From the IMG/VR virus record IMGVR_UViG_3300030330_003913: a DNA stretch of 64,000 nt; one strand, written 5' to 3'. Made by a program: the position numbers and the translations under genes. The notes beneath the pieces were generated by a model. That model saw only the letters and a list, made by a program, of their open reading frames with translations. It did no database searches and was not told where the DNA came from. The first letter of the stretch is position 1. Each line of letters starts with the position of its first letter. The stretch is from a virus (Duplodnaviria; Caudoviricetes). Of this stretch, positions 6,530 through 58,603 are shown in pieces.

Positions 6530-7110
6530 ATTATCTTTACCTCTTCATCACTTAAGTTTACCAAACCTGTTCCTGTTTCATGACCTATATCCGATAAGTC
6601 ATATTTTTCTTCCTCAATATTGTTCCAAAAGTTATACATATCAGTATTAAGTTTTATATCATCTAACAACACAAAACCTTTATAACTCTCTTTTAATATA
6701 TTATATAATTCTAATTCTTGTACACCATCATGTGGATTAACATCTATAAGGACAAACTTATAATAGTCAGGTTGATACTTACCTAAACCTACAGATACAT
6801 CAGAAGTATATGGTGTTATGTTATCATATCTATGTCTTAATATTTCAAATGTAGAATATCTATGTAAGTCCCATGTATCAACTTTATTACTTCTGTTCTT
6901 TGCAAAAGACACAGCACTGAATCCATATTCTGTTCCTATATCTAATATATTTGTATCTTGATATTGGTTAGTTAGATATTCATATAACCTATATGGTTGG
7001 TATCCTAAAGTTTCTTCATACCAATGATTTAATTCAGATGTTTCTATTAGTTCAATATCATCTTCATAATAAACATCCCAATCTCTAATTATTTGTTTAT
7101 CAATAATCAT
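6526..7110 (-). CDS. Class I SAM-dependent methyltransferase
   Basis: LDIGTEYGFSA motif I; LLDDI. Confidence 0.8.
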   Translation of the reverse strand: MIIDKQIIRDWDVYYEDDIELIETSELNHWYEETLGYQPYRLYEYLTNQYQDTNILDIGTEYGFSAVSFAKNRSNKVDTWDLHRYSTFEILRHRYDNITPYTSDVSVGLGKYQPDYYKFVLIDVNPHDGVQELELYNILKESYKGFVLLDDIKLNTDMYNFWNNIEEEKYDLSDIGHETGTGLVNLSDEEVKII

Positions 7111-18974: not shown

Positions 18975-19502
18975 TTAGAAATCACCTGGGGCTACTTGGA
19001 ATGTATTAAGACCTAAGTCTCTCCACATCTTGACAACTTTATCCCTATCGTCAACCACAAGAAAAACATCGTTGATATCTACAAAAGTATCTAACATCTT
19101 TTTCTTGAGAATTTCATCAGGCATAAACCTCATATCAAAAGTGGCAGGATTACCATCGGCAATCGGCCAAGACTTATCTTTGAACTTATCTGGTCTAAGA
19201 ACCAAAAGGTCAAATGGTACATCATGTTTCTGTAACCATTCCTGAGTCGCGAAAAAACCTCTGTCATTCCTACCACTAAAGATAACAACTCTGAATCCAT
19301 CTTTGTGGAACATTTGTGCCATCTTTATGACTGGATGATTTGGTTCATCCCAATGAAGAATAGAATCTGGTGATGCAAATAAATCCCAATTAAGTTTACC
19401 ATTTGGTTTAGTGGAATTATCTCTCCTAACATCAATATTAGCGAGAGTACCATCTAAGTCAAATATAACCGTTTTCTTGTTCATAATATCTCCTTTTAAC
19501 AT
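18975..19502 (-). CDS. HAD-family polynucleotide 3'-phosphatase (PseT phosphatase domain-like)
   Basis: DLDGT, SGR, DEILK, DDRDKVVKMWRDLGL. Confidence 0.85.
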   Translation of the reverse strand: MLKGDIMNKKTVIFDLDGTLANIDVRRDNSTKPNGKLNWDLFASPDSILHWDEPNHPVIKMAQMFHKDGFRVVIFSGRNDRGFFATQEWLQKHDVPFDLLVLRPDKFKDKSWPIADGNPATFDMRFMPDEILKKKMLDTFVDINDVFLVVDDRDKVVKMWRDLGLNTFQVAPGDF

Positions 19503-19507: not shown

Positions 19508-19539
19508 AAGATACGAATAAAATACTATGTAAGTCAAGC
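19508..19539 (-). promoter_or_regulatory. Sigma70-type promoter
   Basis: GCTTGACT-N18-TATCTT. Confidence 0.7.
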
Positions 19540-19540: not shown

Positions 19541-19918
19541 TTATTTTCGTTTTTTCTTATTTTTTTTCATTGATTTTCTGTAGTATAGATATTTGAGTAT
19601 CTCATACTTTGCCTCGGAACCACGAACTCCTGCGACTGGTGTGATTTGTTCTACTTCATAGTAGACATCAGTAACCTCTTGGATTTCTTCCCATTCATAA
19701 TTATCCCAAAGGTTATCAAGGTCAAGAGACAAAGTATCCTCTACCTCTTGACCCATTAAACTACTGAGTGAGAAGAGTAGGTAATTCTGATAAATAAAAT
19801 GTCGTAGAATCATATTCATAAAAGTAAATGTCATCATTCTTTCTATGATGATATATTCTTCCATTACCTGCATCATCATAATCAACCTGCCACTCATCAT
19901 CCTCATCAGGTATACCAT
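19541..19918 (-). CDS. Small protein downstream of the pilins (true start internal)
   Basis: C-terminal half acidic then PVAGVRGSEA; N-terminal half overlaps the pilin gene. Confidence 0.45.
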   Translation of the reverse strand: MVYLMRMMSGRLIMMMQVMEEYIIIERMMTFTFMNMILRHFIYQNYLLFSLSSLMGQEVEDTLSLDLDNLWDNYEWEEIQEVTDVYYEVEQITPVAGVRGSEAKYEILKYLYYRKSMKKNKKKRK

Positions 19919-20201
19919 ACTCTAAGTTGACTTTTACATTACGACTCCTACCAATAATAGTTAGTGGATGTGTAGGCCAACTCTCAATACCAGTTGCGAG
20001 TAATCTTTCAGATGCCTCTTGTTCTAATCCTGCCCATATCATATCAACGAATGCCTTTTCTGCTGCATTCTCTGCATTATTTAATGTATCGGCGTATCTT
20101 GGTATCGCGACTGCTGCGAGTATCCCTAAGATTATTGTTACCATTACTAACTCTATTAGTGTGAACCCTTTACTTGTTTTCTTCATGATTTTCCCTTTCA
20201 T
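19761..20201 (-). CDS. Type IV pilin / pseudopilin (class III signal peptide)
   Basis: KG|FTLIELVMVTIILGILAAVAIPRY: G-1, F+1, E+5. Confidence 0.9.
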   Translation of the reverse strand: MKGKIMKKTSKGFTLIELVMVTIILGILAAVAIPRYADTLNNAENAAEKAFVDMIWAGLEQEASERLLATGIESWPTHPLTIIGRSRNVKVNLEYGIPDEDDEWQVDYDDAGNGRIYHHRKNDDIYFYEYDSTTFYLSELPTLLTQ

Positions 20202-20204
20202 GTG

Positions 20205-20831
20205 TTACGGTTGAAGTTTCTTATGTAAGTCTGTTGGATTTTCTAAATCTGCCACATACAAGATTGGTGAGTATGATGCAGTTCCTGCACCACCACCTGG
20301 TATTACTATGAAAATATAGTGTCCATCCTGAAATGGTGATTTGATTGCGTTTCTACCGAATTGGTCTAAGAATTCTTCTGCCCCTACTGATACATTATAG
20401 AAGTCATCAAAATTATCATCTTCAGATGTAGAGATATTGTGTCCACTTGGTGCAGGTGCAGTGGGATGATTAGTACTAAATACTGATACCCAATTCGTAC
20501 CCTCAACATTATCATATGAACCAAATCCTTGTATCGCACTTAATAAAGCTTCTTCTGTTTGGTATCCACCAACTGCCTCATCATACTTTACTTGACCAGG
20601 AAACCTACCTCTACCCTCACGAACTACCATATCATTATAGAAGTTCATAGCAGATTGAGTTATCTTATCTATATCGGCCTCTGTTTTTCTTTCCTTTGCT
20701 GCCTCACCCACTCCACTAAATCTTGGAGCTGCGGTAGTTGCCAAGGTTGCCATCATTGCAGTAGTGACTGCAAACTCTGCGAGAGAATTACCTCTCTTAC
20801 TTTTTATTTTTTTCATTAGGTTTTTAAACAT
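20205..20831 (-). CDS. Type IV pilin-like protein with atypical N+1
   Basis: KRG|NSLAEFAVTTAMMATLATTAAPRF: G-1, E+5, P+22. Confidence 0.8.
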   Translation of the reverse strand: MFKNLMKKIKSKRGNSLAEFAVTTAMMATLATTAAPRFSGVGEAAKERKTEADIDKITQSAMNFYNDMVVREGRGRFPGQVKYDEAVGGYQTEEALLSAIQGFGSYDNVEGTNWVSVFSTNHPTAPAPSGHNISTSEDDNFDDFYNVSVGAEEFLDQFGRNAIKSPFQDGHYIFIVIPGGGAGTASYSPILYVADLENPTDLHKKLQP

Positions 20832-20867
20832 TATTCTTCTCCTTTAATGTTATTCTACTATATATGT

Positions 20868-20884
20868 TACAAAAAGCATACCAA
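20868..20884 (-). promoter_or_regulatory. Sigma54-type -24/-12 promoter of pilin genes
   Basis: TTGGTATGCTTTTTGTA: GG-N10-GT (canonical GG-N10-GC). Confidence 0.6.
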
Positions 20885-20976
20885 ACTGCGTTATTTTTAA
20901 AAAATAATTTAATTTATTTTTAAGTCTGTATATATGTGAAGTTAGAGATGAGAAATTTTAGATAATATTAGGCAAT

Positions 20977-20999
20977 AAAAAACCACCGAGTTGGTGGTT
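20977..20999 (-). terminator. Intrinsic terminator
   Basis: AACCACC-AACTC-GGTGGTT followed by U-run. Confidence 0.75.
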
Positions 21000-21008
21000 A
21001 ATTATTTG

Positions 21009-21057
21009 TGTCTTGTTTTGATACATGAAGTGTCACATATGTGTTCAAAATGTTACA
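21009..21057. promoter_or_regulatory. Candidate enhancer (bEBP UAS) pair
   Basis: TGT-N11-ACA at 21009-21025 and TGT-N10-ACA at 21042-21057. Confidence 0.45.
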
Positions 21058-21340: not shown

Positions 21341-21392
21341 GGTAATTCTCCATAGTTTGTATTCTACTATAAATATCAAACTTCTAAAAAAC

Positions 21393-23547: not shown

Positions 23548-23784
23548 TCTTTTTATCTTTAATTTCTCAACAATATCAAGAAATTCTGTCATAGAGTACT
23601 TCTGTCCCTTTTCATCAAGTATCATATAGTTCTCTAATGATTCAGGACTCGTGTTTATCATATTGTTTAGTGCCATCCACCCTTGTTCAGGATAAAATGA
23701 ACCTAAACTTTCTTCACCCAATATATTACTACTGAACATTAAGTTTTCTTTTGACTCTTTTTTATTGAGTATGAAATATGTCAT
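23542..23784 (-). CDS. Hypothetical protein
   Basis: GAGG RBS. Confidence 0.55.
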   Translation of the reverse strand: MTYFILNKKESKENLMFSSNILGEESLGSFYPEQGWMALNNMINTSPESLENYMILDEKGQKYSMTEFLDIVEKLKIKRA

Positions 23785-24436
23785 GTATATCCTCTGATAC
23801 TATTTTATATCCTTTTGTTGATGGATGTGCTCTTCCTTTTACAAATGGATTGGTTTTATCCAATCCTCTTTCAAATAACTCTGAATCTTTTTTGTTTAAT
23901 AACATATCAGTAATAGAACTATCTGTATATAAATAGTTTTCTTTTTTTACAAAATCAGGTTTTTTATAACTTTCTACCGTATTTATAAATACATAACCCT
24001 TTACATTTGGTGTATTATCAAGTATATGTTTTACTTCTAACAACCAAATTTTACATAATGTATTAAAATATTCATCATTATAACAATAAATTAAATAATC
24101 TTCCCATAGTTTATTATCTTGTGGTTTTATAAGATTAGGATGGTCGTATTTGTCCTCTTGAAGGATATTTCTACCCCATGAAGATGCAAAACCTAACCAT
24201 GGTAAATTTTCTCTCAAAAATGATGTTACACCCACTACACAAAAACACTCTTCATTAAATGGATTTTCTTTGATAGAAGATAATACTTCAGTATTATTTG
24301 AACCTGCATACCCATAATTACTAACACTCCAACCTTCTTCACTTAACCAATAATCAATACCCATTCTTCTACCATCCTCATGGTGGTCTGCACAAGAACC
24401 ATATATAAAACTATCTCCAAATAAATTAATTATCAT
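23762..24436 (-). CDS. SGNH/GDSL-like hydrolase
   Basis: FGDSFIYG, NYGYAGSNN, AHPSTKGY. Confidence 0.75.
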   Translation of the reverse strand: MIINLFGDSFIYGSCADHHEDGRRMGIDYWLSEEGWSVSNYGYAGSNNTEVLSSIKENPFNEECFCVVGVTSFLRENLPWLGFASSWGRNILQEDKYDHPNLIKPQDNKLWEDYLIYCYNDEYFNTLCKIWLLEVKHILDNTPNVKGYVFINTVESYKKPDFVKKENYLYTDSSITDMLLNKKDSELFERGLDKTNPFVKGRAHPSTKGYKIVSEDIHDIFHTQ

Positions 24437-25613
24437 TTTTAATTAACGACTCCTCTGAAGTTTGTAGATTAGTAATTCTAATTTTTAATATACCTAATTC
24501 AAATGAACCAAAGTCTCCACTATCTTTTATTATATCAGGTAACTTTGTAATGTATTGGAAGTTCTCACTATTTAATCTTTCACCATCAACCCTAACCACA
24601 ACACCATTTTTAGGATATGCCCTATCACGATGAACTCTTCTTCTCAATGGATAATCAGTTCTTGGTTGTTCATTCTTAATATACTCCTGTATGTAACCAC
24701 CATCTGGTACAAAAATATTACTACACCATGGTTCACAATTGGATAAGATATTGTAATCACAATAATTCTCAATCACAATACCAATATTGTATTTAGGTGA
24801 GACTATCGGTTTCATGTATTCATCATGTTGAACTGCAGTTCCCCACTTTCTTATGAAGTTTCTCATATTTTTAGTTGTTGTCTCAATCCATTCAGGACTA
24901 TCTTTACCTGGTGCACCACCTGCAGATGGATTAAATCTTGAACCTCTACAAGTCATATGATAAACATAACCTTGCCAAGTCTGTATAAACTTAACATCAT
25001 TTAAATGTAGTCTATTGAATATATCTGAATCTTCTTTACTTTGTGGTCTGAATAATTTATCATGTCCACCAACATTTTGGAAGTCTTCCTTGTATATTGC
25101 CCAAGGTGCAAACACACCCTCTGTAACTCTATCTTCACCTTGTTTGTCTTCTTCAAGAAACTCTAATAATCCTTCTTCATCAAACTCTTCAGGTTCTATT
25201 CCAAAGTCCTTCAATACTTTTTCTGGCCCATCAGGATGTAATGGTGGTTCTATTCTTGTAAGTGATACAACCTTACCTTTTTCTAACAATCTATCTATTT
25301 CTTTATCTGCATTTGGACACAAATACATATCGGAATGAAAGAACACAACTCTATCATTGGTTGCATACTCATTCACTAATTTATCATATAGTATTGTAAG
25401 TCCTTCTCTTTCGGGGCCTTTGTTTACATGAAGTTTGATATTTTTATCTCTCTTCATCCAAACTAATATATGTTCTAATGTTCCATCTGTTGAGGCATCA
25501 TCTGCAAAACATATTTCATGTTCTACTGACGAGTTCTTACGAATACTCTCGTAACACCACTTCAGATAAGTTAGATTATTTCTACTTGGTATTATAAAAC
25601 TAATCGGTTTCAT
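24426..25613 (-). CDS. GT2 glycosyltransferase
   Basis: SFIIPSRN, DDASTDGT, HSDMY, EDSD. Confidence 0.85.
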   Translation of the reverse strand: MKPISFIIPSRNNLTYLKWCYESIRKNSSVEHEICFADDASTDGTLEHILVWMKRDKNIKLHVNKGPEREGLTILYDKLVNEYATNDRVVFFHSDMYLCPNADKEIDRLLEKGKVVSLTRIEPPLHPDGPEKVLKDFGIEPEEFDEEGLLEFLEEDKQGEDRVTEGVFAPWAIYKEDFQNVGGHDKLFRPQSKEDSDIFNRLHLNDVKFIQTWQGYVYHMTCRGSRFNPSAGGAPGKDSPEWIETTTKNMRNFIRKWGTAVQHDEYMKPIVSPKYNIGIVIENYCDYNILSNCEPWCSNIFVPDGGYIQEYIKNEQPRTDYPLRRRVHRDRAYPKNGVVVRVDGERLNSENFQYITKLPDIIKDSGDFGSFELGILKIRITNLQTSEESLIKNDN

Positions 25614-26613
25614 TTTCTTTTAACCACTCTCTTAAATGTTCTAATCGTTTCTCTTCACTTGGAAATGCACCTTTGTTACATTTTCTACACATTCTAAGTT
25701 TATCTCTATGTCCTTCTTTTAGTGTCTCTCTGTAATGAGTATATGAATCATTAATCCATACTTCTTCAATTCTTTCATTCAATACATTACCATGTATCAC
25801 TTTATATTCCCAATCACAACAACATAACAATGCATCTCCATTCCATTTGATATACATTTGTGAACTTGGAAAATGACAATCTTTTTGTGGAACTGGCATA
25901 TCAGGATTTACATTTGTTAAACCACCACGATTCCAAAATGTAAATGGGCCGAAGTGACTATCCTTTGACATACCCTTTTTCATTTGTGTCACATTGTAAT
26001 TTGATGACAATGTAATAAAACATTTACCATTAACACCTTGAAATGGTTCTAATTGTTTTAGTAATTTAGTGGCATATCTATCATCAAAATAATCATCTAT
26101 TTGTATTGAAGTTAGTCCTGCATCAATCATATCACCAAGAAGTTCTGTAGTTAATCCTGTTCCATTTGTATTAATTTTGATTGGATTTTTTGGTAAATAT
26201 TTTCTTGTTATTCCAATTATCTCTACCATTCTATCTTTATCCATTAATGGTTCATTCATAAGATAAGGTGAAACTCTACCAGTAAAATTTAAGTCTGCCA
26301 AGTTCTTTACTATTTTGGTATAGTTTTCAATAGACATTATATTATAAGGAATACCTTTTTTCTTTCCCTCTAACCTATCCCATATCATATAGTGATTAGG
26401 ACAAAAGTCACATTTCAAATTACAAAATTCTATTGTTTGAATTTGTATCTGACCAAATAATGGAAATCCTTCTATTTTTGGTGGTTCATAACCTAATGAT
26501 AAGTGTGGATTAACTGCGTCATGTGTTGCAACATCTTCTGATGGAACACCAATTAGTATATCTCTAATTGGATAAAATTCTATGTGTTTGTTTGGTTCCA
26601 ATGTTTTAACCAT
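25600..26613 (-). CDS. Radical SAM/SPASM protein
   Basis: CNLKCDFC; NEPL; C-terminal CC.D...C..C. Confidence 0.9.
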   Translation of the reverse strand: MVKTLEPNKHIEFYPIRDILIGVPSEDVATHDAVNPHLSLGYEPPKIEGFPLFGQIQIQTIEFCNLKCDFCPNHYMIWDRLEGKKKGIPYNIMSIENYTKIVKNLADLNFTGRVSPYLMNEPLMDKDRMVEIIGITRKYLPKNPIKINTNGTGLTTELLGDMIDAGLTSIQIDDYFDDRYATKLLKQLEPFQGVNGKCFITLSSNYNVTQMKKGMSKDSHFGPFTFWNRGGLTNVNPDMPVPQKDCHFPSSQMYIKWNGDALLCCCDWEYKVIHGNVLNERIEEVWINDSYTHYRETLKEGHRDKLRMCRKCNKGAFPSEEKRLEHLREWLKENETD

Positions 26614-27488
26614 GCCTCCTCTGTATAATAATCATTAAATCTTTTCAATGCAGTCTCACTACATAATTTATAAAACTTCTCATCCTTTAGTTTCTTACCC
26701 AATTCAACTGCTTTGTCTAAATCACCAACCTCAACTGAAGTCAATGGATGGATTAATTCTTGTGTATCTAATCCCTTATATCCGATACAAGGTATTCCAT
26801 GAAACCCACAATTCATACTAAAGGTTCCTGCAGCGTGTGTTCTCATTAAATGAACACCTATATTATATTGTGATAAACTATTTACCCAATCTCTCCAACT
26901 CATATAAGGTAGATAATTTATGTCCTCTATTAAATCTTCTTGTTCTTGTTTTCTACCCATTGATGGACAACTAATAGGATTACCTATCTGTCTCGCAACC
27001 ATATAGGAATCAAATCCACCATACCAACTACAAAAGTTACCACCAATCATTGTACCATCACCCCACTCACTTCTTGGAAGTAAACCATCAGTAATCATTA
27101 AACTTCTCATCACTCGTACATCTTTACACCCTAATCCAAGATAATAATTTACATCACTTTCATTATGACAATAAACCCAATCTGCGTCTATCAATGCATT
27201 ATAATACTGAAATTGTTTATCAATAGTATAATCTTGAAAATACCAATTAGGGCCTTCTTGCATTACTGCAACCTTATCACAATAACTTCTGAATGTCTGT
27301 ATGTTTATATTAGGATTGTTCTTTGGTATTATTACAATACCCAAATCACATTTATCTCTTGGTGTTTGTCCTATTGGACACCACTCTGCATCTAATGCAA
27401 TACTCCAACCAAACTCTGTACGAGCGTTCTCAAAATCTCTTGGAACTTTACCTCTAACTTGACTCTCTGAAAAAAATACTATCTTCAT
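26580..27488 (-). CDS. GT-B fold glycosyltransferase-like protein
   Basis: AAGTFSMNC..GIPCIG acceptor-domain pattern. Confidence 0.6.
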   Translation of the reverse strand: MKIVFFSESQVRGKVPRDFENARTEFGWSIALDAEWCPIGQTPRDKCDLGIVIIPKNNPNINIQTFRSYCDKVAVMQEGPNWYFQDYTIDKQFQYYNALIDADWVYCHNESDVNYYLGLGCKDVRVMRSLMITDGLLPRSEWGDGTMIGGNFCSWYGGFDSYMVARQIGNPISCPSMGRKQEQEDLIEDINYLPYMSWRDWVNSLSQYNIGVHLMRTHAAGTFSMNCGFHGIPCIGYKGLDTQELIHPLTSVEVGDLDKAVELGKKLKDEKFYKLCSETALKRFNDYYTEEAWLKHWNQTNT

Positions 27489-28159
27489 AAATCTGAAATC
27501 GTTTTGAACTCTATTGTGAATTGTGATAATAAATAGTCTAAGATTCTCTGAAAGTAAATAAAATTTTCTTCATTCCATGTATTATCATTCCAATCTCCTT
27601 GTATATGTGATTGGAACATAAATGTGTTTCCATATAATTTTACATCATCACTTTGATGAATACCATCTGCACCCCAAAATAACTTAGTGTCAAATCGTAT
27701 ACCTTGATTGATTTGTTCATGTTGTGCAACCCACTCAAAGTTTTCACTAACTACCTCTGCTGCCTCTTGTGATATTCCCCAACCTGGTGCTCTGAATCCT
27801 TTTGGTTTGTGTCCACATTGTTCCCATAGATTTAAACTATCTCTAACTCTATCAATCGCCTCATCCTTATTTAATTCTAAGAATTCTTGTTCACCTATTT
27901 CTTCTTTGGTATATTTCTTGACATCATGATAATGTCCATGATTACTCAACTCCACCCAATCAAATTGTTTCCAATATGACACCCAATCTTTTGTTAATGG
28001 ATATTCATTATGATAATAACTTGGACAAAATAAATTGAATTTAACTCCATATTTTTTATTGAGTTCTTTTAGATACTCTACTTGAATATCACCTTCACAA
28101 CCCCAACCTTTCTGTGGATGTAAATCATCTATTGCAACTATTAAATTCGTTTCTGTCAC
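27485..28159 (-). CDS. Polysaccharide deacetylase-like (DUF2334/NodB fold)
   Basis: IDD, HGHYH, GFRAPGW. Confidence 0.8.
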   Translation of the reverse strand: MTETNLIVAIDDLHPQKGWGCEGDIQVEYLKELNKKYGVKFNLFCPSYYHNEYPLTKDWVSYWKQFDWVELSNHGHYHDVKKYTKEEIGEQEFLELNKDEAIDRVRDSLNLWEQCGHKPKGFRAPGWGISQEAAEVVSENFEWVAQHEQINQGIRFDTKLFWGADGIHQSDDVKLYGNTFMFQSHIQGDWNDNTWNEENFIYFQRILDYLLSQFTIEFKTISDL

Positions 28160-28160
28160 T

Positions 28161-28409
28161 TTATCTCCAAGGTAACATAGTCATACCGACTAAATTAAGT
28201 AGACACTCTATAATAATTACAAATATAATACCACCGACTATTTGATATGTCCACCATTTCCAACCTTCTAAACTATCAACCCATTTACGAGACTTTGAAT
28301 TTCTTGCCTTATCATATAGACCACTCTCTTCACCTATCTTATTTGCCCAATAGTTTGGGTCTACCCAATCTTTTATTTTACTTAATATTTTAATTAACAT
28401 TTCTTCCAC
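28161..28409 (-). CDS. Small membrane protein
   Basis: C-terminal TM. Confidence 0.55.
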   Translation of the reverse strand: MEEMLIKILSKIKDWVDPNYWANKIGEESGLYDKARNSKSRKWVDSLEGWKWWTYQIVGGIIFVIIIECLLNLVGMTMLPWR

Positions 28410-28596
28410 TCCTTATTTTATTCCATACTCTTTCATGAAAATAAAAAAATATCATTCCTAATATATTCATAATCACTGCATTCCAAAATGGTATTTCAGT
28501 TATACCTAATGCCAGTACCATCCATGAATTACTAAATGCAATCAATCTCCATGTGATTGTTTTTTGTGTTGACCTACTTCTTGTTTCTTGGAACAT
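28390..28596 (-). CDS. DUF2061-family membrane protein
   Basis: ET..RS..KTITWR...YFHERVW. Confidence 0.8.
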   Translation of the reverse strand: MFQETRSRSTQKTITWRLIAFSNSWMVLALGITEIPFWNAVIMNILGMIFFYFHERVWNKIRSGRNVN

Positions 28597-29005
28597 CCCA
28601 ACTCACTTCCCAATCTTTAAATTCAGATGCAATACAATCTACCTTGTAGTCTTTTCTACCACCAACCACTTCCATGATTTTATTTACTGCAGTATTTCTA
28701 ATTCCATTTAATCCATGAGTTAACATTAGATTATCACTACCCTTTTCACCTTTACGAACTTGTGATTCATTATACCAAATATGTGCGTTCATTTGTGATA
28801 ACACTATAATGGCTCTGATTACTTCACCTGTAATTTCACCTTTGTGTTCTTTTAATATTAAATTAATATCATGAACTATGTCATTCATTTCTTGTGCATA
28901 GTTCTCCTTGTTCTCAGGTATAAATACTTCTTTTAATTGATGAATACTTAATCTATCTATTAACTCACCTAATGTTGGTAACCATCTTCTATTTTTTGAT
29001 TTCAT
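28574..29005 (-). CDS. DUF4254/DUF6165-like helical protein
   Basis: TLGELIDRLSI..LK, N..IW..E, N..RN; start trimmed. Confidence 0.6.
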   Translation of the reverse strand: MKSKNRRWLPTLGELIDRLSIHQLKEVFIPENKENYAQEMNDIVHDINLILKEHKGEITGEVIRAIIVLSQMNAHIWYNESQVRKGEKGSDNLMLTHGLNGIRNTAVNKIMEVVGGRKDYKVDCIASEFKDWEVSWDVPRNKK

Positions 29006-30011
29006 CTTTAAACTCTCCATATGTTTTAAATTTAACTTGTCCACCAAATAATTTATTTAAATTTCCTTTACTCATTTTTGTGATTGTCTGATACCAATTA
29101 TTGTCTCTTCTTTTAAAATGAGTAGACTTAGATTTATCTTCATCCTTAACATAAAGTCTTTTTCTTGGATGGTTTCTATTATGAACCTTTAATATATTCT
29201 TAATAACAAATTGTCTATAGTCATCACCCATTAACTTCTGACACATTGCCATAAAACTTGTATCATCACCCACCATTGATACTGCAGGTGGTAAATTAAC
29301 TCCACCTCTTACTAAATCTGAACTCATTACTAAACAACTACCATCAAATTTAGGTGAAGTAATTAATTGAACATCAAGTTCTTCTGTCTTGTCATTTACT
29401 TGTTCCATCTCATCTTGACTCATAGTATATCTAATACTCCATGGTGAGTTTAGTGCCAACTTGGTGTCTTCTTCTGTATCCATGTCATAATATGGTTTAT
29501 TAGTAAACTCTGGATGTTCCAATATTCTCCAACTTTCATCCCACATTTTTCTCAATGCAAATGTTAATGTATATCTGTATATTTGTTGAGAGTTTGCATA
29601 TTCTTTTACACCCTCTAATACATGAAAGAATTCCCTTGGTAATAAACAATCACTTTCACCCCATACTAAATAATCAACTACATTACACCACTTATAGTTA
29701 AAGTCTCTTCTGTAGTCTGCAATACAATAAGGTTTGTTTTGGTCATAGACTTGACTTTTAACTAACACTCCAAGTTTGGATATTTCTGAACACTTACTAT
29801 TAAATTTCTTTATTAGTTCTTTCTTAGTAGTAGTCTCAGTATCTATCTCTTCAAAAAATTCTGATATATTGAAAAACAACTCAACAATAATATTCTCAGG
29901 ATTCTCTACTATCTCAACTGCCTTCTTTACTGAATTTAAGTATTCATCTAATATTTCTATTTCATAAAACATTACATGACAACCTATCGCATATTTATTT
30001 TTTATCTTCAT
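28989..30011 (-). CDS. GT-A fold glycosyltransferase-like protein
   Basis: WGESDCL, GDDT; start trimmed to MKIKNKY. Confidence 0.55.
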   Translation of the reverse strand: MKIKNKYAIGCHVMFYEIEILDEYLNSVKKAVEIVENPENIIVELFFNISEFFEEIDTETTTKKELIKKFNSKCSEISKLGVLVKSQVYDQNKPYCIADYRRDFNYKWCNVVDYLVWGESDCLLPREFFHVLEGVKEYANSQQIYRYTLTFALRKMWDESWRILEHPEFTNKPYYDMDTEEDTKLALNSPWSIRYTMSQDEMEQVNDKTEELDVQLITSPKFDGSCLVMSSDLVRGGVNLPPAVSMVGDDTSFMAMCQKLMGDDYRQFVIKNILKVHNRNHPRKRLYVKDEDKSKSTHFKRRDNNWYQTITKMSKGNLNKLFGGQVKFKTYGEFKDEIKK

Positions 30012-30222
30012 CAAATAACTCCAATTGATTTCTGTCCTTTGGATATGGATTAAACCATTCACCATATTCATCTACCCACAATTCCCATCCACGAAGATTC
30101 TCTCTTTTACTATCTTTTTCATCGTACATAAGATTTAATTGTATGGTATGTAACATTTCAGGTGTTAATCTATCAGAACTTTCTAATGTTATTGCCAATT
30201 TACTATGTCTAATTTTCTTCAT
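29995..30222 (-). CDS. Hypothetical protein
   Basis: AGGAG RBS. Confidence 0.55.
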   Translation of the reverse strand: MKKIRHSKLAITLESSDRLTPEMLHTIQLNLMYDEKDSKRENLRGWELWVDEYGEWFNPYPKDRNQLELFDEDKK

Positions 30223-30961
30223 AATTCTCCTTGACTTGATTCCATACTTGCATCATTAACTGATTCCTTTGTGTCTTTTCAAATCCATTAAAGTGCCATA
30301 CATGACCAACTTCCCACATAGGACATAATCCACCCAAAACACCTCTTAAATGTAATTGTGATAAGTTAAACCTTTCATCAAGATATTTTAGTTCATGTTC
30401 ACTCGCACGAATCATGTAGTTGATTGGTGTTTGGTCTGACCCTTTTTTGAGAGTTTCATGTTGTCTCTTCCTAAGTTCATCTTCATTCTCAAGATAAAAG
30501 TCTATAATCTCTTTACATAAATCTTTGTGTTTTCTACTCATCACTATGAATCCACAATTAAAATAACTTGTCCAATCAAACTTAATATTAGGCCAGAAGT
30601 CTTGATACCCTTTAATACTATTATGTGTCCATTCAATATTAAATTTATCCATGACTGCACTGAACTCACCATCTGTTTGTTCAAAGAAGTTAGGACAATT
30701 CCAATGAACCATTGTGTCTACATCCACTAATGCAACTTGGTCATACTTTATCTCATTGGATTCAAGTATTTCATGTACCCACCATCTCTGCCATGTTGGT
30801 TTCATAATTGACTTGTCTCTTATCTCTTGGTCAAGTACAAATAATTCTACATTATTTTTTTTACACCAATAGTCCCATGATTTGAAACACCATTCTTTAT
30901 AATCTAATATATCAGGTGCCCCATCCATACATGTCATAAATACTACATTTTTTCTGTCCAT
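30209..30961 (-). CDS. GT8/GT34-like glycosyltransferase
   Basis: VDVD, YFNCGF, DQT..NY, WHFNG. Confidence 0.85.
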   Translation of the reverse strand: MDRKNVVFMTCMDGAPDILDYKEWCFKSWDYWCKKNNVELFVLDQEIRDKSIMKPTWQRWWVHEILESNEIKYDQVALVDVDTMVHWNCPNFFEQTDGEFSAVMDKFNIEWTHNSIKGYQDFWPNIKFDWTSYFNCGFIVMSRKHKDLCKEIIDFYLENEDELRKRQHETLKKGSDQTPINYMIRASEHELKYLDERFNLSQLHLRGVLGGLCPMWEVGHVWHFNGFEKTQRNQLMMQVWNQVKENYEEN

Positions 30962-31824
30962 AAGACTCTTACTCCTTCAATGTAATCTAATAAATCAACA
31001 CCAGGTTTCCAACCCAATAATTCTTGTGCCTTTGTATCTGTACAAAGTGTTTCTCTAACTTCACCTGGTCTCTTTGGTATGTAAGTGTATCCCCAATCAA
31101 ATGATTGTGCAACCACATTGATTGAGAAGTTTTCACCTCTACCCAATTCAAATATCTGACCATTTGACTTTTCTATTTGTTCTCCACACTTTACAATTCC
31201 ATCTACGATATCAAATACATGTGTAAAATCTCTTCTCTGTTCACCATCACCTGTAATGGTTAATTCTTTACCCTCTTTGAATTGTTTCTCAAAGATACCA
31301 ATTACGGTACAATATTCACCTTCAGTTAATTGATGTGGGCCGTATACATTGTAAAACCTACATATACTCATCGGTATATCATATGTTTTATGATACATCT
31401 GAATCACCTCTTCACCCTGCCACTTTGTAAAGGTATATGGATTTTTATATACTCCACCATGAAAACTACTTGACCCTGCATATATTATTGGTATCTTTTC
31501 TTCTTTATTTCTAATCCATTCTAATAAGTTTAGTGTTCCAAGTACATTTGCCTCAAATGTTATTGCAGGAAACTCAAATGATGGTTGGATTCTTGGTAGT
31601 GCGGCGAGATGATAAATTATATCAGGTTTCTCCATGAAGAAATCAAAGTCAACTGCATCTCTTAAATCTACATTATAATATGTAACATTTTTATTATCTA
31701 TTTCATTCTCTTCTCTACCTGTAGAATAGTTATCCAAACTAACAACCTTATGACCATCATCCAATAATCTTTCAATCAAATTAGTTCCTATAAAACCTGC
31801 TCCACCTGTTACTAATACATTCAT
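30943..31824 (-). CDS. NAD-dependent nucleotide-sugar epimerase/dehydratase
   Basis: GGAGFIG, HLAA, SSS, YxxxK, RFYNVYGP, RDFTHV. Confidence 0.95.
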   Translation of the reverse strand: MNVLVTGGAGFIGTNLIERLLDDGHKVVSLDNYSTGREENEIDNKNVTYYNVDLRDAVDFDFFMEKPDIIYHLAALPRIQPSFEFPAITFEANVLGTLNLLEWIRNKEEKIPIIYAGSSSFHGGVYKNPYTFTKWQGEEVIQMYHKTYDIPMSICRFYNVYGPHQLTEGEYCTVIGIFEKQFKEGKELTITGDGEQRRDFTHVFDIVDGIVKCGEQIEKSNGQIFELGRGENFSINVVAQSFDWGYTYIPKRPGEVRETLCTDTKAQELLGWKPGVDLLDYIEGVRVLWTEKM

Positions 31825-31833
31825 CTTTTTCTC

Positions 31834-32514
31834 CTATATTTTGTAAGTCTCAAATTTAGTTCCCTCTAATCTCAAGTTTATAAATGGATTAAGAGAACAA
31901 ATATTCACATCATTAAAATTTAATAATTGTTTTAGTGCAATTGTTTCTTTTTCCATGTTGTTTAAAAATCCTTTTATACCATCCCAATTACTTGCAGACT
32001 TCCAATCTTTTTCTACATATTCGTGGTAGTACATCTGACCATCAATCTCACCACCATCATGTCCACATAGTATGATGTTCTTTGCACCCATATAATATGC
32101 AATGTGGACTGCAGTGGTTACGGTTGAACGACTAACAATAATTTCCTCATCAATATCAAGTTCCATCAACTCCATATCAAAATCTTTTTTTCTTGGATTG
32201 TGTTTAAACATATAAGAATTAGGATTATCACAATTGTTCAATCCCTTTTCTTCATAACCTTTATAATACTGACTATAGATTAATGGTATGTCTTTTTCTT
32301 TAAGTTCTTGTACTAACCTTGGAAATCTTGGTTCCTCGTTACAATCTTTTACAACTACATAATCACAATCAAAATATCTGAATATATCATTTACTCCAAG
32401 TACTATTTTATTTTCAAAAAAACTCTTATCTATATGATTAAGTGAAGGGCCTCCACTAACAATCCATATATCTTTGTCTTTGTGTATATTCTGTAATGAT
32501 TTAAAGTCTTTCAT
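31834..32514 (-). CDS. Maf/DUF115-like (6-hydroxymethylpterin diphosphokinase-like fold) transferase
   Basis: IVSGGPSL, GVN, STV..A...AYYMGAKNIILCGHD. Confidence 0.75.
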   Translation of the reverse strand: MKDFKSLQNIHKDKDIWIVSGGPSLNHIDKSFFENKIVLGVNDIFRYFDCDYVVVKDCNEEPRFPRLVQELKEKDIPLIYSQYYKGYEEKGLNNCDNPNSYMFKHNPRKKDFDMELMELDIDEEIIVSRSTVTTAVHIAYYMGAKNIILCGHDGGEIDGQMYYHEYVEKDWKSASNWDGIKGFLNNMEKETIALKQLLNFNDVNICSLNPFINLRLEGTKFETYKI

Positions 32515-32759
32515 AATCTACCTCCTAAATTACCTTCCTCGTCCAAATCTAACTCATCTATTTTGTTCTTTTTTTTCGGGTTTGCGTCATCTTGGTTTGG
32601 AATAATATTCAAATCCTCATTATCTATTATTTTGTCCATTGCGAAATGAAATATACCAGTTATGACAAATATTGGAAACATAATAAACCAAGTCATTACA
32701 TATCCGATAAGTACGACTACTTTACGGTTTAACTTTGTTATATTTGAATGTGGTTTCAT
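32511..32759 (-). CDS. Small membrane protein
   Basis: TM segment. Confidence 0.5.
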   Translation of the reverse strand: MKPHSNITKLNRKVVVLIGYVMTWFIMFPIFVITGIFHFAMDKIIDNEDLNIIPNQDDANPKKKNKIDELDLDEEGNLGGRL

Positions 32760-33145
32760 AATCTATCCATATCTTCTAATGTTTGTTTCCAATTTGTAAA
32801 TCTAATACCTTTATCATCAATATAAAACTTTGCGTTAGGTTTTCCCCAAACAACCCTATCTACAAATTTATACATATCGTGTTCTCTTAACCACTCTTCA
32901 ACTAACTCAACACCTGTCTTTTCATTAACCTTTGGTCTGTTAGGATTTGCCTTACAAGTAAAAAGAACTATTTTGTATTTCTTACTTATCTTCTCTAATG
33001 ATTCATAACTTCCTTCAATGACATCATCATAGATTGTACCATCATGAAAACCTTTACTATTTTTATGAATCACTCCATCAAAATCAATCGCGATGGTATT
33101 TTTTTCATCTTGATTAATTCTTTCTATTTCTTTATTAATGTCCAT
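32756..33145 (-). CDS. HAD-family phosphatase
   Basis: DFDGV, FTC, GKP, YIDDK. Confidence 0.85.
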   Translation of the reverse strand: MDINKEIERINQDEKNTIAIDFDGVIHKNSKGFHDGTIYDDVIEGSYESLEKISKKYKIVLFTCKANPNRPKVNEKTGVELVEEWLREHDMYKFVDRVVWGKPNAKFYIDDKGIRFTNWKQTLEDMDRL

Positions 33146-33806
33146 TGTTTAATCTCTTGTATAAAAACTCTGCGAAGTCAAAGTCAAGTGGTGTATCAAT
33201 ATCAACTGATTCTAAATCATCCATTACATAAAATAGTGGATTCTTTCCTACTACATTTTTATATTTTAACATGTTTTCTTTACTGATGATTGATATTCCA
33301 AAAGTTAAGTTATAAATTTCTGGTAAATCTTGTGAGTTAGGAACATTATCCAAATCATAATTCAAGGGTTTATTATCTAACCATAAATATTCTTTTACCC
33401 TTGATACTGAATTGTAACTATCGTGTCCCAAATCTAAACAATTATTAAATCTATTAATAAAATCATAATAAGTTTCAACCTTTACCAATGGTGCAGTACA
33501 TGGTGTGTGCATTATATAATCTGTATCTGTAGTAAATGCTAAGTTTTCCCAATGTTCTGTATTGGTACATTCATTACTTGCATAATACTCTTCTCTTCTG
33601 AAGTAACTAACACCATACTCTTTTGATATTTCAATCGCCTCATCTGAATTAGTGTTAACAACTATATCATCTATAGTATCAACTTGTTTTAGTGTTTCTA
33701 ACTTTAGTTTTAGTAATGTAGTATCACCAAAAGGTCGGAAGTTTTTGTCTATAACTCTTTGAGAACCAACTCTTATTGGAACTACTGCTGTAATTTTCTT
33801 TCTCAT
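33135..33806 (-). CDS. CMP-ulosonic acid synthetase (NeuA-type cytidylyltransferase)
   Basis: PIRVGSQRVIDKN, TAPL, SQDL, DIDTPLDF. Confidence 0.9.
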   Translation of the reverse strand: MRKKITAVVPIRVGSQRVIDKNFRPFGDTTLLKLKLETLKQVDTIDDIVVNTNSDEAIEISKEYGVSYFRREEYYASNECTNTEHWENLAFTTDTDYIMHTPCTAPLVKVETYYDFINRFNNCLDLGHDSYNSVSRVKEYLWLDNKPLNYDLDNVPNSQDLPEIYNLTFGISIISKENMLKYKNVVGKNPLFYVMDDLESVDIDTPLDFDFAEFLYKRLNNGH

Positions 33807-34555
33807 AGTCTATCTTTTATTTCCTTTGCTCTTGTATTGTACTCATTAGAAAATCTTTTGTAATGTAATGACTTACTCTCTAACCATAAGGATTCCCACT
33901 CCAACATCAATGAAATTATCGTACCCAACTTACTAATATTATTTTTATTTAATCCTAAGATTACATTTCGTGTCTCAATACAATCTAAGAATCCCTTATC
34001 AAATAAGTCTTGGATGAACTCTATACTCTTAGTACCAATATTACCACCCATATAGGTTTTCATTCCTAATTTTTTTGATTCTTGTAGGATATAAGTTACT
34101 ACTCTACAAATCTCATCCGACATTACATCTTGTTTTCCATAACCAAATGACTTTGTTAAATCAGAACGACCCACCACAACACCACTTAACATTTTACTTG
34201 TGGGTGAATCTAATATATCATTTAAGTTTTTATATGCCTGTACACTTTCAATGTTGATAAACTTATTACCATCATAAGGTAGTTTAGTAATAGACTCTGA
34301 AAACTTTTGTAGTGCAAACCTTGATTCAATCATTGGTGCAACTATACCATCAACTTCTAAATCAATACAACGATTTATATCAGAAATGGCTTCACACCCA
34401 CCAATCTTTACACTCAACTTTAAATCCAAGTCTCTACATATTTTAGATATCTTCCAAAGGTCTAAATCCAATACTCCTTCATCTTCAAAAGATTGTTTTA
34501 TACCTATGACACCTTGGTTCTTAAGTTCATCTAATAATTTTACTATATAACTCAT
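33803..34555 (-). CDS. HpcH/HpaI aldolase family protein
   Basis: IVAPMIES, NIES, VGRSDL. Confidence 0.75.
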   Translation of the reverse strand: MSYIVKLLDELKNQGVIGIKQSFEDEGVLDLDLWKISKICRDLDLKLSVKIGGCEAISDINRCIDLEVDGIVAPMIESRFALQKFSESITKLPYDGNKFINIESVQAYKNLNDILDSPTSKMLSGVVVGRSDLTKSFGYGKQDVMSDEICRVVTYILQESKKLGMKTYMGGNIGTKSIEFIQDLFDKGFLDCIETRNVILGLNKNNISKLGTIISLMLEWESLWLESKSLHYKRFSNEYNTRAKEIKDRL

Positions 34556-38818: not shown

Positions 38819-38828
38819 CTATAACCTC

Positions 38829-39023
38829 TTAATATTTAGAACCACTTGTTTCTAAGTCACTATTCTTTAGAACTTTTTCCTTAAAATCTTCATCATACAC
38901 AAATAAATGTAAACTACGATTTACTAATTTTTGTAACGAAAAGTCCTCAGAGATAGATTTCTCCTTGAACTTACGATATAACTCATCAATAACTTTTACT
39001 GATGTTAATTTGTCTTCACTCAT
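38829..39023 (-). CDS. Small ribbon-helix-helix-like protein
   Basis: LTSVKV strand then two helices; first gene of the GT operon. Confidence 0.5.
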   Translation of the reverse strand: MSEDKLTSVKVIDELYRKFKEKSISEDFSLQKLVNRSLHLFVYDEDFKEKVLKNSDLETSGSKY

Positions 39024-58485: not shown

Positions 58486-58603
58486 TAAAACTGACTCCTA
58501 TATTTTAGATTCTTTTTTCTCTTTAATTAAGTATAATATATACGGAGAATAAATGCACTTTTATTATTTTTTTAGAAGTTTTAATAATTTTTTCTTAGAA
58601 GTT

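What the first reader, a model, noticed from the sequence alone, without database searches (positions are those of the whole stretch)
19541..21057. Phage-borne type IV pilin pair with a sigma54-type promoter and enhancer
Seen: two adjacent prepilins (G|FTLIE and atypical G|NSLAE), a small downstream ORF, GG-N10-GT about 40 nt upstream, an AT-rich spacer, two TGT-N10/11-ACA sites 125-175 nt further up and an insulating terminator. No assembly ATPase or peptidase is in the window. Known: pilin genes are often driven by sigma54 and a PilR-type activator. Inference: the phage plugs its own pilins into the host pilus regulon, to swap or jam the pilus (superinfection exclusion) or alter adhesion.
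Basis: partly seen in the sequence, partly recalled or inferred. Interest (0 to 1): 0.75.

Follow-up and report, generated by a model that had tools for sequence, protein, structure and literature searches.

The report
Phage pilin cassette with sigma-54 promoter
An uncultured marine T4-like phage carries a type IV pilin operon copied from Marinimicrobia (SAR406) bacteria together with its sigma-54 promoter and enhancer, so the phage's pilins are probably switched on by the host's own pilus regulator; this also names a likely host for a widespread phage group.

Summary
Two co-directional prepilin genes (20205-20831, 19761-20201, minus strand) and a small downstream ORF sit behind a real terminator.

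Taken alone, the -24/-12 match (TGGTAT-N5-TTGTA) and the TGT-N10-ACA sites are at chance level in this AT-rich window. Comparison rescues them:
- 71 of 77 related phage loci keep a -24/-12 block at the same place (67 as TGGTAY-N5-TTGT).
- The full 18-base phage block occurs once per phage record, in records of 11.5-126 kb.
- All 41 homologous bacterial loci, mostly Marinimicrobia, carry YGG[CT]AY-N5-TTG[CTA] before the homologous pilin; 28 are fully canonical.
- Many of those bacterial loci lie next to pilD-pilB-(sigma-54 activator)-pilC.
- TGTWACA-type heptamer repeats 120-180 nt upstream are the top enriched words in both sets.

No pilus machinery, activator or sigma-54 was found in the phage DNA available. 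Both pilins are under purifying selection. The small ORF is phage-only and looks secreted.

Most likely mechanism: the phage plugs host-like pilins into the host pilus under host sigma-54 and activator control. The purpose is untested (receptor remodelling or exclusion versus keeping the pilus running). This is a new variant of a known kind.

The parts
21019..21057 (-). Enhancer (upstream activator sites): three heptamers TGTAACA (21057-21051, overlapping the stop codon of the upstream gene), TGTGACA (21037-21031) and TGTATCA (21025-21019), 137-174 nt upstream of the -24 TGG. The second is a one-base variant read by eye.
   Evidence: Sequence. GTAACA/GTTACA are the top enriched hexamers at -260..-40 in 56 phage loci (98% and 95% against 12-17% in controls) and in 40 bacterial loci (70% against 13-14%). 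Sites peak at -120..-180.
20972..20999 (-). Intrinsic terminator (7-8 bp G+C-containing stem, then a T run) lying between enhancer and promoter. It ends transcription of the upstream phage gene.
   Evidence: A perfect-stem hairpin plus T run occurs at this place in 25 of 56 phage loci, 2 of 501 control windows and 0 of 40 bacterial loci.
20884..20971 (-). AT-rich spacer between terminator and promoter.
   Evidence: Sequence. Low information content across loci. A role in DNA bending is inference only.
20868..20883 (-). Sigma-54-type core promoter, non-canonical form TGGTAT-N5-TTGTA. The -24 GG is at 20882-20881. The -12 GT is at 20870-20869. The predicted start lies about 20858-20856.
   Evidence: The full 18-base phage block occurs once per phage record at zero mismatches, and TTGGTAY-N5-TTGTA occurs once in the window at zero mismatches. 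The bacterial homologs carry TGGCAY-N5-TTGC at the same place.
20851..20865 (-). Phage-specific conserved block just downstream of -12. It reads ATATATAGTAGAATA here and TATATAGGTA in most relatives, over the predicted melting and start region.
   Evidence: Information profile. TATATAGGTA is not a general promoter word in related phage records. Function unexplained.
20205..20831 (-). Pilin B: 208-aa prepilin with a 14-aa leader, G|NSLAEF. It resembles type IVb pilins in leader length, non-Phe +1 residue and size. It is the homolog of the gene found first after pilC, or after a gene inserted there, in Marinimicrobia.
   Evidence: Alignment A1: G14 and E19 invariant. 3443 clusters and 301 representatives. 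Model with a helix over residues 3-72 plus a beta domain. The 16 best matches in the VIA-align structure search are all pilins or pseudopilins, Z about 5. dN/dS 0.11-0.18.
19761..20201 (-). Pilin A: classical prepilin (KG|FTLIE). The likelier start is the ATG at 20186, behind GAAAGGG, giving a 7-aa leader. Co-transcribed with pilin B.
   Evidence: Pfam N_methyl 3.5e-7. PHROG pilin families. Bacterial homologs at 42-49% identity directly after pilin B homologs. dN/dS 0.07-0.19.
19541..19819 (-). Phage-specific small ORF, about 92 aa if it starts at 19819. It has a hydrophobic N-terminus (a putative Sec signal that overlaps the end of pilin A) and an acidic body with an invariant core T.VAGVRG.EA..E.L..LYYR.
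   Evidence: tblastn: 65 phage loci hit, 0 bacterial loci. Alignments. No Pfam, PHROG or Atlas match. Low-confidence model.
19533..19539 (-). Boundary marker: the GCTTGAC -35 element of the phage's own early-type promoter, which drives the next gene (HAD/PNKP phosphatase, 18975-19502).
   Evidence: GCTTGAC occurs 11 times against 2.1 expected, 10 of them on the coding strand. Promoter scan.

Best explanation
The locus is a self-contained cassette that a virulent T4-like marine phage took from its probable host lineage, Marinimicrobia (SAR406, Fidelibacterota). It comprises an enhancer, a terminator, a sigma-54-type promoter, two prepilins and a phage-only secreted protein.

Shown:
- Both pilins, their order, the -24/-12 block and the upstream heptamer repeats are homologous to those of pilin operons beside pilD-pilB-activator-pilC in Marinimicrobia genomes.
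- The phage copies are conserved and under purifying selection.
- The phage DNA available carries no pilus machinery, activator or sigma-54.

Inferred:
- After DNA entry, host RNA polymerase with sigma-54 sits at TGGTAT-N5-TTGTA.
- The host's pilus-cluster activator binds the TGTWACA sites about 140-175 nt upstream and opens the promoter.
- The terminator keeps phage read-through out, so the cassette answers only to the host pilus circuit.
- Host PilD cleaves both prepilins after the conserved glycine, and the host PilB/PilC machine builds them into the cell's type IV pilus.

Leading purpose (inference, about even odds): host pilins are replaced or diluted with phage alleles that differ in the exposed middle part. 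This changes what can bind the pilus, excluding rival or sister phages, as shown for prophage FimU. The pilus stays working.
For: Phage identity: T4-type PolB, RNR and DnaB, all on one strand with uniform GC.

Pilins:
- Pfam N_methyl for pilin A.
- Invariant G(-1) and E(+5) in the pilin B family.
- Pilin-like model and structure matches.
- dN/dS 0.07-0.19.

Host homology:
- 46 genome loci, mostly Marinimicrobia MAGs and SAGs.
- L019 and L036 read PilD-PilB-(Sigma54_activat+HTH_8)-PilC-pilin B-N_methyl pilins, with one inserted gene in L036.
- Pilin A homologs lie right after pilin B homologs.
- Phage and host pilin B sequences interleave in the tree, and host L019 sits inside a phage clade with 99% support.

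Promoter:
- 41 of 41 host loci have YGG[CT]AY-N5-TTG[CTA], 28 of them canonical.
- 71 of 77 phage loci keep the block.
- Each of the two phage substitutions also occurs singly in host promoters.
- The full phage block occurs once per phage record.
- High information content is confined to the -24 and -12 positions.

Enhancer. rpoN is present in 3 of 4 host genomes searched. No machinery was found in phage DNA.

Precedents: prophage FimU replaces host FimU and blocks phages (PMC12952977). The archaeal virus SNJ2 encodes two pilins that use the host machinery (PMC12426801). PilR drives pilA and responds to pilin pools (PMC6058289).
Against: - The window's -12 is GT rather than the near-invariant GC, and -22 is T rather than C. 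No transcription data exist.
- In the window alone the motif is at chance level.
- Six of 77 phage loci show no recognisable block within 600 nt.
- The activator has no detectable receiver domain, so its signal is unknown.
- The host link rests on the cassette alone. A PolB search of 301 genomes of the phylum found no close phage contig.
- A few bins carrying the pilin bear other phylum names.
- Nothing shows that these phages or their rivals bind pili.
- The phage-only secreted ORF is not explained by simple pilin replacement.
Confidence: 0.6

Rival explanations
1. Same wiring, different purpose: a psbA-like auxiliary gene set. T4-like phages shut down or destroy host DNA. The phage would carry its own copies of high-turnover pilins, under the host's own feedback circuit, to keep the pilus working during infection. 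The pilus might serve attachment to particles, buoyancy, or DNA uptake as a nucleotide source.
For: - The phage pilins stay close to host ones (62-64% identity to L019-L021) and exchange repeatedly with them, as psbA does.
- Many phages carry a set of 3-4 pilins that mirrors the host order.
- There is strong purifying selection.
- Host-type regulation is retained.
Against: - The middle, exposed part of pilin B is hypervariable, which fits receptor escape better than simple supply.
- The window keeps only two of the pilins.
- A phage-only secreted partner is not needed for supply.
- There are no data on host shut-off in this phage group.
Confidence: 0.27
2. The cassette turns the host pilus machine into an exporter. 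The phage pilins, with pilin B resembling type IVb pilins, prime the machine to release the phage-specific secreted protein. This follows the logic of TcpF and CofJ in type IVb pilus operons.
For: - Pilin B has a 14-aa leader, a non-Phe +1 residue and about 194 mature residues.
- Its structure matches include the ETEC type IVb pilus and the toxin co-regulated pilus.
- The small ORF has a signal-peptide-like N-terminus, always follows the pilins, and is absent from host loci.
Against: - There is no sequence or structure similarity to TcpF or CofJ.
- The signal peptide is judged by eye only.
- Host loci with the same pilins have no such partner.
- TcpF/CofJ biology is cited from my own knowledge, not tested here.
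Confidence: 0.08
3. The conserved block is not a sigma-54 promoter. It would instead be a sigma-70-type or phage-specific promoter (TTGGTA-16-TATAGT in the window), with the upstream heptamers binding a repressor or serving recombination.
For: - The scan finds TTGGTA-16-TATAGT at 9 of 12 matches.
- The -12 C is missing.
- A phage-specific TATAGG block follows.
- The same 12-mer TATAGTAGAATA precedes the neighbouring gene.
Against: - A sigma-70 reading is possible in only 8 of 54 distinct phage promoters.
- The invariant spacing is GG-N10-G, not -35/-10.
- The homologous host promoters are canonical sigma-54 sites beside a sigma-54 activator gene.
- The phage's own early promoters use GCTTGAC.
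- TATATAGGTA is not reused elsewhere in related phages.
Confidence: 0.04
4. Assembly chimera or recent dead passenger: host DNA joined to a phage contig, or a cassette no longer used by the phage.
For: The cassette is host-like and bounded by a terminator and a promoter.
Against: - GC content is uniform.
- The same cassette occurs in at least 79 viral contigs, with syntenic phage neighbours.
- dN/dS is 0.07-0.19.
- Motif-only conservation in the intergenic DNA.
Confidence: 0.01

Closest known systems
Prophage-encoded FimU (P-FimU) of Pseudomonas aeruginosa F10-like phages, and the PilA-like genes noted in Xylella prophages and some virulent phages (Sztanko et al., Cell Rep 2026, PMC12952977)
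   Same: A phage-encoded pilin homologous to a host type IV pilus subunit, with no machinery of its own. It is taken into the host pilus. The benefit is exclusion of pilus-binding phages.
   Different: - Here the carrier is a virulent T4-like marine phage of an uncultured phylum.
- The main gene resembles the host gene in the major-pilin position, not a tip minor pilin.
- There are two to four pilins plus a phage-only secreted protein.
- The cassette carries the host's sigma-54 promoter and enhancer.
- Function is untested.
SNJ2 provirus pilins PilA1/PilA2 of Natrinema (Xiang et al., Cell Rep 2025, PMC12426801)
   Same: Two tandem virus-encoded type IV pilins that use the host secretion and assembly machinery.
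   Different: SNJ2 is an archaeal, temperate virus. Its pilins form their own filaments, which serve as receptor for another virus. No sigma-54 system is involved.
pilA control by sigma-54 and PilR/PilS (Pseudomonas, PMC6058289; Xanthomonas RpoN2-PilRX, PMC7170775)
   Same: A pilin gene next to pilB, pilC and pilD, driven from a -24/-12 promoter by an enhancer-binding ATPase encoded in the pilus cluster. Repeated activator sites lie upstream.
   Different: - The activator here has no detectable receiver domain, and no PilS was looked for.
- The binding word is TGTWACA.
- The phage form of the promoter is TGGTAY-N5-TTGT.
- The regulated genes sit on a phage genome.
Phage morons (terminator-promoter-gene cassettes) and host-derived auxiliary genes such as cyanophage psbA (from my own knowledge)
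   Same: A host-derived gene set with its own promoter, insulated by a terminator, inserted between phage genes and exchanged repeatedly with hosts.
   Different: The promoter class depends on a host alternative sigma factor plus a host activator. I found no report of this for a virulent phage in the library searched.

Membership tests
Type IV pilins (class III signal peptide proteins) | Short basic leader ending in Gly, Glu at +5, then a hydrophobic N-terminal helix of about 20 residues | tested here: met
   Pilin A has KG|FTLIELVMVTIILGILAAVAIP, and pilin B has RG|NSLAEFAVTTAMMATLATTAAP. G14 and E19 are invariant in 20 diverse pilin B relatives.
Type IV pilins (class III signal peptide proteins) | Match to the Pfam N_methyl motif (PF07963) | tested here: met
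   This is met for pilin A (3.5e-7, 30 bits against a cut-off of 21.2). Pilin B has no Pfam match at E <= 0.1. Its +1 residue is N, Q, A, S or E instead of F or M.
Type IV pilins (class III signal peptide proteins) | Lollipop fold: a long N-terminal helix packed on a beta-sheet head | tested here: met
   The pilin B model has pLDDT 77, a helix over residues 3-72 and C-terminal strands. The 16 best of 48,161 chains are all pilins or pseudopilins. Z is only about 5, which on its own is weak, and Foldseek found nothing at E <= 0.001. Pilin A was not modelled.
Type IV pilins (class III signal peptide proteins) | Cleavage by a prepilin peptidase and assembly by PilB/PilC | not testable with these tools
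   Homologous bacterial loci encode Peptidase_A24, T2SSE and T2SSF next to the pilin. No processing data exist.
Sigma-54-dependent promoter | TGG at -24 and TTG at -12 with fixed spacing (GG-N10-G) | tested here: met
   The window has TGGTATGCTTTTTGTA at 20883-20868. The same spacing occurs in 71 of 77 phage loci and 41 of 41 bacterial loci, and information peaks fall exactly on these positions.
Sigma-54-dependent promoter | C at -12 (the GC doublet) and C at -22 (TGGCAC) | tested here: not met
   The window and 67 of 77 phage loci have GT and TGGTAY. Among the homologous bacterial promoters, 8 of 41 have GT and 4 of 41 have TGGTAY, but none has both. I therefore file it as a non-canonical derivative of a sigma-54 promoter, not as a canonical member.
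Sigma-54-dependent promoter | Enhancer: repeated activator sites about 100-200 nt upstream | tested here: met
   There are on average 3.3 TGTWACA-type sites per phage locus against 0.42 in controls, and 2.35 against 0.45 for bacterial loci. The sites peak at -120..-180. The window has three.
Sigma-54-dependent promoter | Sigma-54 and an enhancer-binding ATPase available in the cell | tested here: met
   Sigma54_DBD is found in 3 of 4 genomes carrying the homologous locus. A Sigma54_activat+HTH_8 gene lies between pilB and pilC. This holds only if Marinimicrobia is the host. None was found in phage records of 80-131 kb.
Sigma-54-dependent promoter | Transcription requires sigma-54 and activator ATP hydrolysis | not testable with these tools
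   There are no expression data.
PilS/PilR two-component control of pilA | Activator with receiver, AAA+ and Fis-type HTH domains, paired with a PilS kinase | tested here: inconclusive
   The AAA+ domain (7.4e-66) and HTH_8 (1.6e-14) are found, but no Response_reg match at E <= 0.001 in residues 1-147 of the L019 activator. A separate 124-aa receiver protein lies upstream of pilD. PilS was not searched for.
Phage pilin replacement defence (P-FimU type) | Phage-encoded homolog of a host pilus subunit, with no machinery in the phage | tested here: met
   
Phage pilin replacement defence (P-FimU type) | Incorporation into the pilus and a block to adsorption of pilus-binding phages | not testable with these tools
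   This needs a culture or a heterologous system.

The most novel reading that the evidence does not exclude
A virulent phage runs part of its programme through the host's sigma-54 and enhancer system, and uses the host pilus machine as its own device. The phage-derived promoter form (TGGTAY-N5-TTGT plus a TATAGG start block) would be tuned for infection. The phage pilins would re-prime the Marinimicrobia pilus to display new surfaces and to export the phage-only secreted protein, following TcpF/CofJ logic. This would amount to a phage-controlled secretion and pilus module in one of the ocean's most abundant uncultured phyla.
Probability: 0.12. Interest if true: 0.85.

Novelty: new variant of a known kind. 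Interest (0 to 1): 0.7.

Why it matters
1. It gives a testable host assignment, Marinimicrobia/SAR406, for a widespread group of large marine T4-like phages. The pilin family has 3443 clusters at 90% identity and occurs in 166 viral contigs. The phylum has no cultures, and in the library searched only fragmentary virus records from single cells (PMC4611503).
2. It shows a phage carrying a host structural gene together with that gene's alternative-sigma promoter and enhancer. Expression would therefore be handed to a host signalling circuit. I found no report of this for a virulent phage.
3. It extends virus-encoded pilins from Pseudomonas prophages and a haloarchaeal provirus to lytic ocean phages. 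It also adds a conserved phage-only secreted partner of unknown role.
4. It defines the likely binding word (TGTWACA) and regulon marker of the pilus-cluster activator in Marinimicrobia.

Tried and rejected
- DNA similarity of the 4-kb region to GenBank phages found nothing. tblastn of pilin B against the same phages also found nothing.
- The window's own genome is not held.
- Foldseek of the pilin B model against the PDB gave nothing at E <= 0.001. Only the search by VIA-align (the in-house structural aligner) gave pilins, at modest Z.
- I first suspected a sigma-70 or T4-late-like promoter, seeing TTGGTA-16-TATAGT and ATATATAG. I rejected this because ATATATAG is not enriched, TATATAGGTA is not reused in related phages, and the sigma-70 reading survives in only 8 of 54 promoters.
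- A second TGGTAT-N5-TTGTA-like site at 28218 lies inside a coding region and was dropped.
- The PF00158 hit in G003 is a generic MoxR-like AAA+ protein next to a vWA gene, not an activator.
- The small ORF has no Pfam, PHROG or Atlas match. Its model has pLDDT 66 and pTM 0.35, too poor for a fold search.
- A PolB search of 301 genomes of the phylum, meant to find phage contigs as independent host evidence, gave one distant hit at 34% identity. This gives no support either way.
- Literature searches for Marinimicrobia phages with pilins, or for marine viral pilins, found nothing direct.
Full report
**What is there**

The window is about 31% GC throughout, with every gene on the minus strand. 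It encodes a T4-type PolB, ribonucleotide reductase and a DnaB-like helicase. The PolB is closest to Microcystis phage Mel-JY01 at 44% identity, then to cyanomyophages. It is a piece of an uncultured T4-like phage. The nearest held record is an 80-kb IMG/VR contig judged 42% complete. That contig carries the same two pilins at 91-94% identity.

At the finding's coordinates, all on the minus strand, I find these parts.

| Part | Coordinates | Notes |
|---|---|---|
| Pilin B | 20205-20831 | 208 aa; leader ends RG, then NSLAEF |
| Pilin A | 19761-20201 | 146 aa; KG\|FTLIE; Pfam N_methyl 3.5e-7; likelier start 20186 |
| Small ORF | ends 19541 | open back to 19819 |
| Terminator | 20999-20981 + T run | |
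| -24/-12 match | 20883-20868 | TGGTATGCTTTTTGTA |
| GCTTGAC | 19539-19533 | -35 word of the phage's own early promoters; opens the next gene |

GCTTGAC occurs 11 times in the window against 2.1 expected, 10 of them on the coding strand.

**Is it more than chance?**

Within the window alone it is not. The -24/-12 match has three mismatches to TGGCAC-N5-TTGCW. There are 180 such matches against 164 expected. TGT-N10-ACA occurs 33 times against 39 expected. The same bases can also be read as a sigma-70-like TTGGTA-16-TATAGT. The case rests on comparison with homologous loci.

**Comparison among phages**

- Pilin B belongs to a large marine family: 3443 clusters at 90% identity and 301 representatives at 50%.
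- G(-1) and E(+5) are invariant, the middle part is hypervariable, and the C-terminal blocks are conserved.
- 166 IMG/VR contigs encode it, and 79 loci were fetched.
- In 77 phage loci including the window, 67 have TGGTAY-N5-TTGT, 3 have TGGCAT-N5-TTGC and 1 has TGGCAC-N5-TTGT, all 31-86 nt before the start codon. Six have nothing recognisable.
- Information content is high only at the TGG.A and TTG.A positions and at a phage-specific TATAGG block just downstream. Flanking bases drift.
- The 18-base block TTTGGTAY-N5-TTGTA occurs once per phage record at zero mismatches, always before the pilins, in four records of 11.5-126 kb. The 17-base form occurs once in this window.
- The cassette keeps its upstream DNA even where the upstream gene differs, as in L005. 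It holds 2, 3 or 4 pilins (27, 6 and 29 loci) followed by the small ORF.

**Comparison with cells**

A scan of one genome per prokaryotic species found 46 loci. Most are from Candidatus Marinimicrobia/Neomarinimicrobiota (Fidelibacterota) MAGs and single-cell genomes, and some lie on contigs of 220 and 583 kb.

In L019, a Marinimicrobia single-cell genome, the gene order is as follows:
1. a receiver protein
2. PilD (Peptidase_A24)
3. PilB (T2SSE)
4. a Sigma54_activat+HTH_8 protein
5. PilC (T2SSF)
6. the pilin B homolog
7. N_methyl pilins

L036 has the same order, with one gene inserted after PilC. tblastn finds these machinery genes in 15-22 of the 41 bacterial loci analysed and in none of 82 phage loci or the window.

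Upstream of the bacterial pilin B homologs, all 41 loci carry YGG[CT]AY-N5-TTG[CTA]. Twenty-eight are fully canonical TGGCAY-N5-TTGC, 8 have TTGT and 4 have TGGTAY. The phage block is therefore the homolog of a canonical sigma-54 promoter. Each of its two C-to-T changes is seen singly in host promoters, but the pair is seen only in phages.

rpoN is present in 3 of 4 of these genomes. It was not found in five phage records of 80-131 kb. Those records also lack a true activator or pilus ATPase.

**Enhancer**

A de novo word count over -260..-40 gave GTAACA/TGTTAC and GTTACA/TGTAAC as the top hexamers in both sets independently.

| Measure | Phage loci | Phage controls | Host loci | Host controls |
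|---|---|---|---|---|
| Loci with the top hexamers | 98% / 95% of 56 | 12-17% | 70% / 70% of 40 | 13-14% |
| Mean sites per locus | 3.3 | 0.42 | 2.35 | 0.45 |
| At least two sites | 54 of 56 | 6% | 32 of 40 | 10.5% |

Sites peak 120-180 nt upstream of the TGG. The window has TGTAACA, TGTGACA and TGTATCA at 21057-21019.

A hairpin plus T run between enhancer and promoter is a phage feature. It occurs in 25 of 56 phage loci and 0 of 40 host loci. This fits an insulated moron.

**The proteins**

- Pilin B is modelled with a helix over residues 3-72 and a beta head (pLDDT 77). The 16 best of 48,161 chains are all pilins or pseudopilins, but at Z about 5 only.
- Its 14-residue leader, non-Phe +1 residue and mature size of about 194 residues recall type IVb pilins (my knowledge).
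- Pilin A has full-length host homologs at 42-49% identity, placed directly after pilin B homologs. The gene pair was therefore taken as a unit.
- Between the window and its nearest phage relatives, dN/dS is 0.11-0.18 for pilin B and 0.07-0.19 for pilin A.
- In the tree, phage and Marinimicrobia sequences interleave. The phage label needs at least 2-3 changes, and host L019 sits inside a phage clade at 99% support. Exchange has been repeated.

The small ORF differs from the pilins. It is found in 65 phage loci and in no bacterial locus. It has a hydrophobic N-terminus ending ...SYSQ in most relatives, and an acidic body with an invariant core T.VAGVRG.EA..E.L..LYYR. It has no family match, and its model is poor. 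Its first 60-70 nt overlap the end of the preceding pilin in another frame.

**How it most likely works**

Shown: homology of genes, gene order, promoter and enhancer to Marinimicrobia pilus loci; selection on the phage copies; and no machinery in the phage DNA available.

Inferred:
1. Host sigma-54 holoenzyme binds the block.
2. The pilus-cluster activator binds the heptamers and opens the promoter.
3. The terminator shields the cassette from phage read-through.
4. Host PilD and PilB/PilC process and assemble the phage pilins.

For the purpose, I favour pilus surface replacement that excludes pilus-binding phages. The precedents are prophage FimU (PMC12952977), the PilA-like genes of virulent phages discussed in that paper, and the hypervariable exposed part of pilin B. 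A psbA-like role in keeping the pilus running is nearly as good. An export role for the small protein is possible. The paired C-to-T promoter form might loosen activator dependence (my recollection of -12 mutant studies, untested).

**Limits**

- There are no expression data.
- The host assignment rests on the cassette alone (one search gave no independent support).
- The activator lacks a detectable receiver domain.
- The -12 GC feature is not met, so I call this a non-canonical derivative of a sigma-54 promoter.

**Novelty**

Virus-encoded pilins that use host machinery are known (PMC12952977, PMC12426801). Sigma-54/PilR control of pilA is also known (PMC6058289, PMC7170775). The new points are:
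- the carrier, a widespread lytic T4-like ocean phage group
- the probable host phylum
- the transfer of promoter plus enhancer with the genes
- the phage-derived promoter form
- the phage-only secreted partner

Searches of the held literature found no prior description.

Noticed in passing
window, 11 sites, e.g. 53605-53599, 42489-42483, 19539-19533, 17422-17416 (minus strand): GCTTGAC occurs 11 times against 2.1 expected, 10 of them on the coding strand. In the four copies read it is followed 17-18 nt later by TATATT-like hexamers. This is the -35 word of the phage's own early-type sigma-70 promoters.
   Followed up: partly
window 21360-21371 and 20851-20862 (minus strand): The exact 12-mer TATAGTAGAATA occurs twice, each about 20-30 nt before the ribosome-binding site of neighbouring genes (pilin B and the 95-aa gene starting near 21340). 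The second copy has no -24 GG. It may be a local copy or a shared start-region element; it is unexplained.
   Followed up: partly
related phage loci, 10-20 nt downstream of the -12 element (e.g. L073, L068): A TATATAGGTA block over the predicted start site is conserved in phage promoters but not in host promoters. It is not reused elsewhere in related phage records.
   Followed up: partly
window 19761-19819; L073 4841-4908: The signal-peptide-like start of the small ORF is encoded in a 60-70 nt overlap with the 3' end of the preceding pilin, in another frame. The overlap is seen here and in L073. The N-terminal peptide is conserved across many other phage loci, but whether it overlaps there was not checked.
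   Followed up: partly
L019 (Marinimicrobia single-cell genome AM-382-M06) 5995-6624: This host pilin, first after pilC, sits inside a clade of ten phage pilins at 99% support. Its promoter already has the TTGT form with three TGTTACA sites. This suggests recent phage-host exchange in one direction or the other.
   Followed up: partly
L036 5956-12454 (583-kb bacterial contig): The host locus holds a long array of pilin genes: three pilin B paralogs, two of them identical 252-aa copies, plus at least seven N_methyl pilins. It looks like a duplicated block and may be a pilin variation system.
   Followed up: no
L067 (G003 57762-61091), about 2-4 kb downstream of the pilin cassette of the 125-kb phage contig: A vWA-like protein (DxSxS motif) is followed by a MoxR-like AAA+ ATPase. 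The ATPase caused a weak false hit to the sigma-54 activator family.
   Followed up: partly
window 23762-39023 and 31834-34555 (from earlier notes of this scan): The phage carries a large glycosyltransferase island and a nonulosonic-acid-like pathway with a Maf-like gene. Pilins are common targets of such glycosylation (my knowledge), so phage or host pilins could be the acceptor. This was not examined.
   Followed up: no
L072, L098, L099, L118, L144, L084: Six phage loci have pilin B but no recognisable -24/-12 block within 600 nt upstream. These are possible promoter replacements.
   Followed up: no
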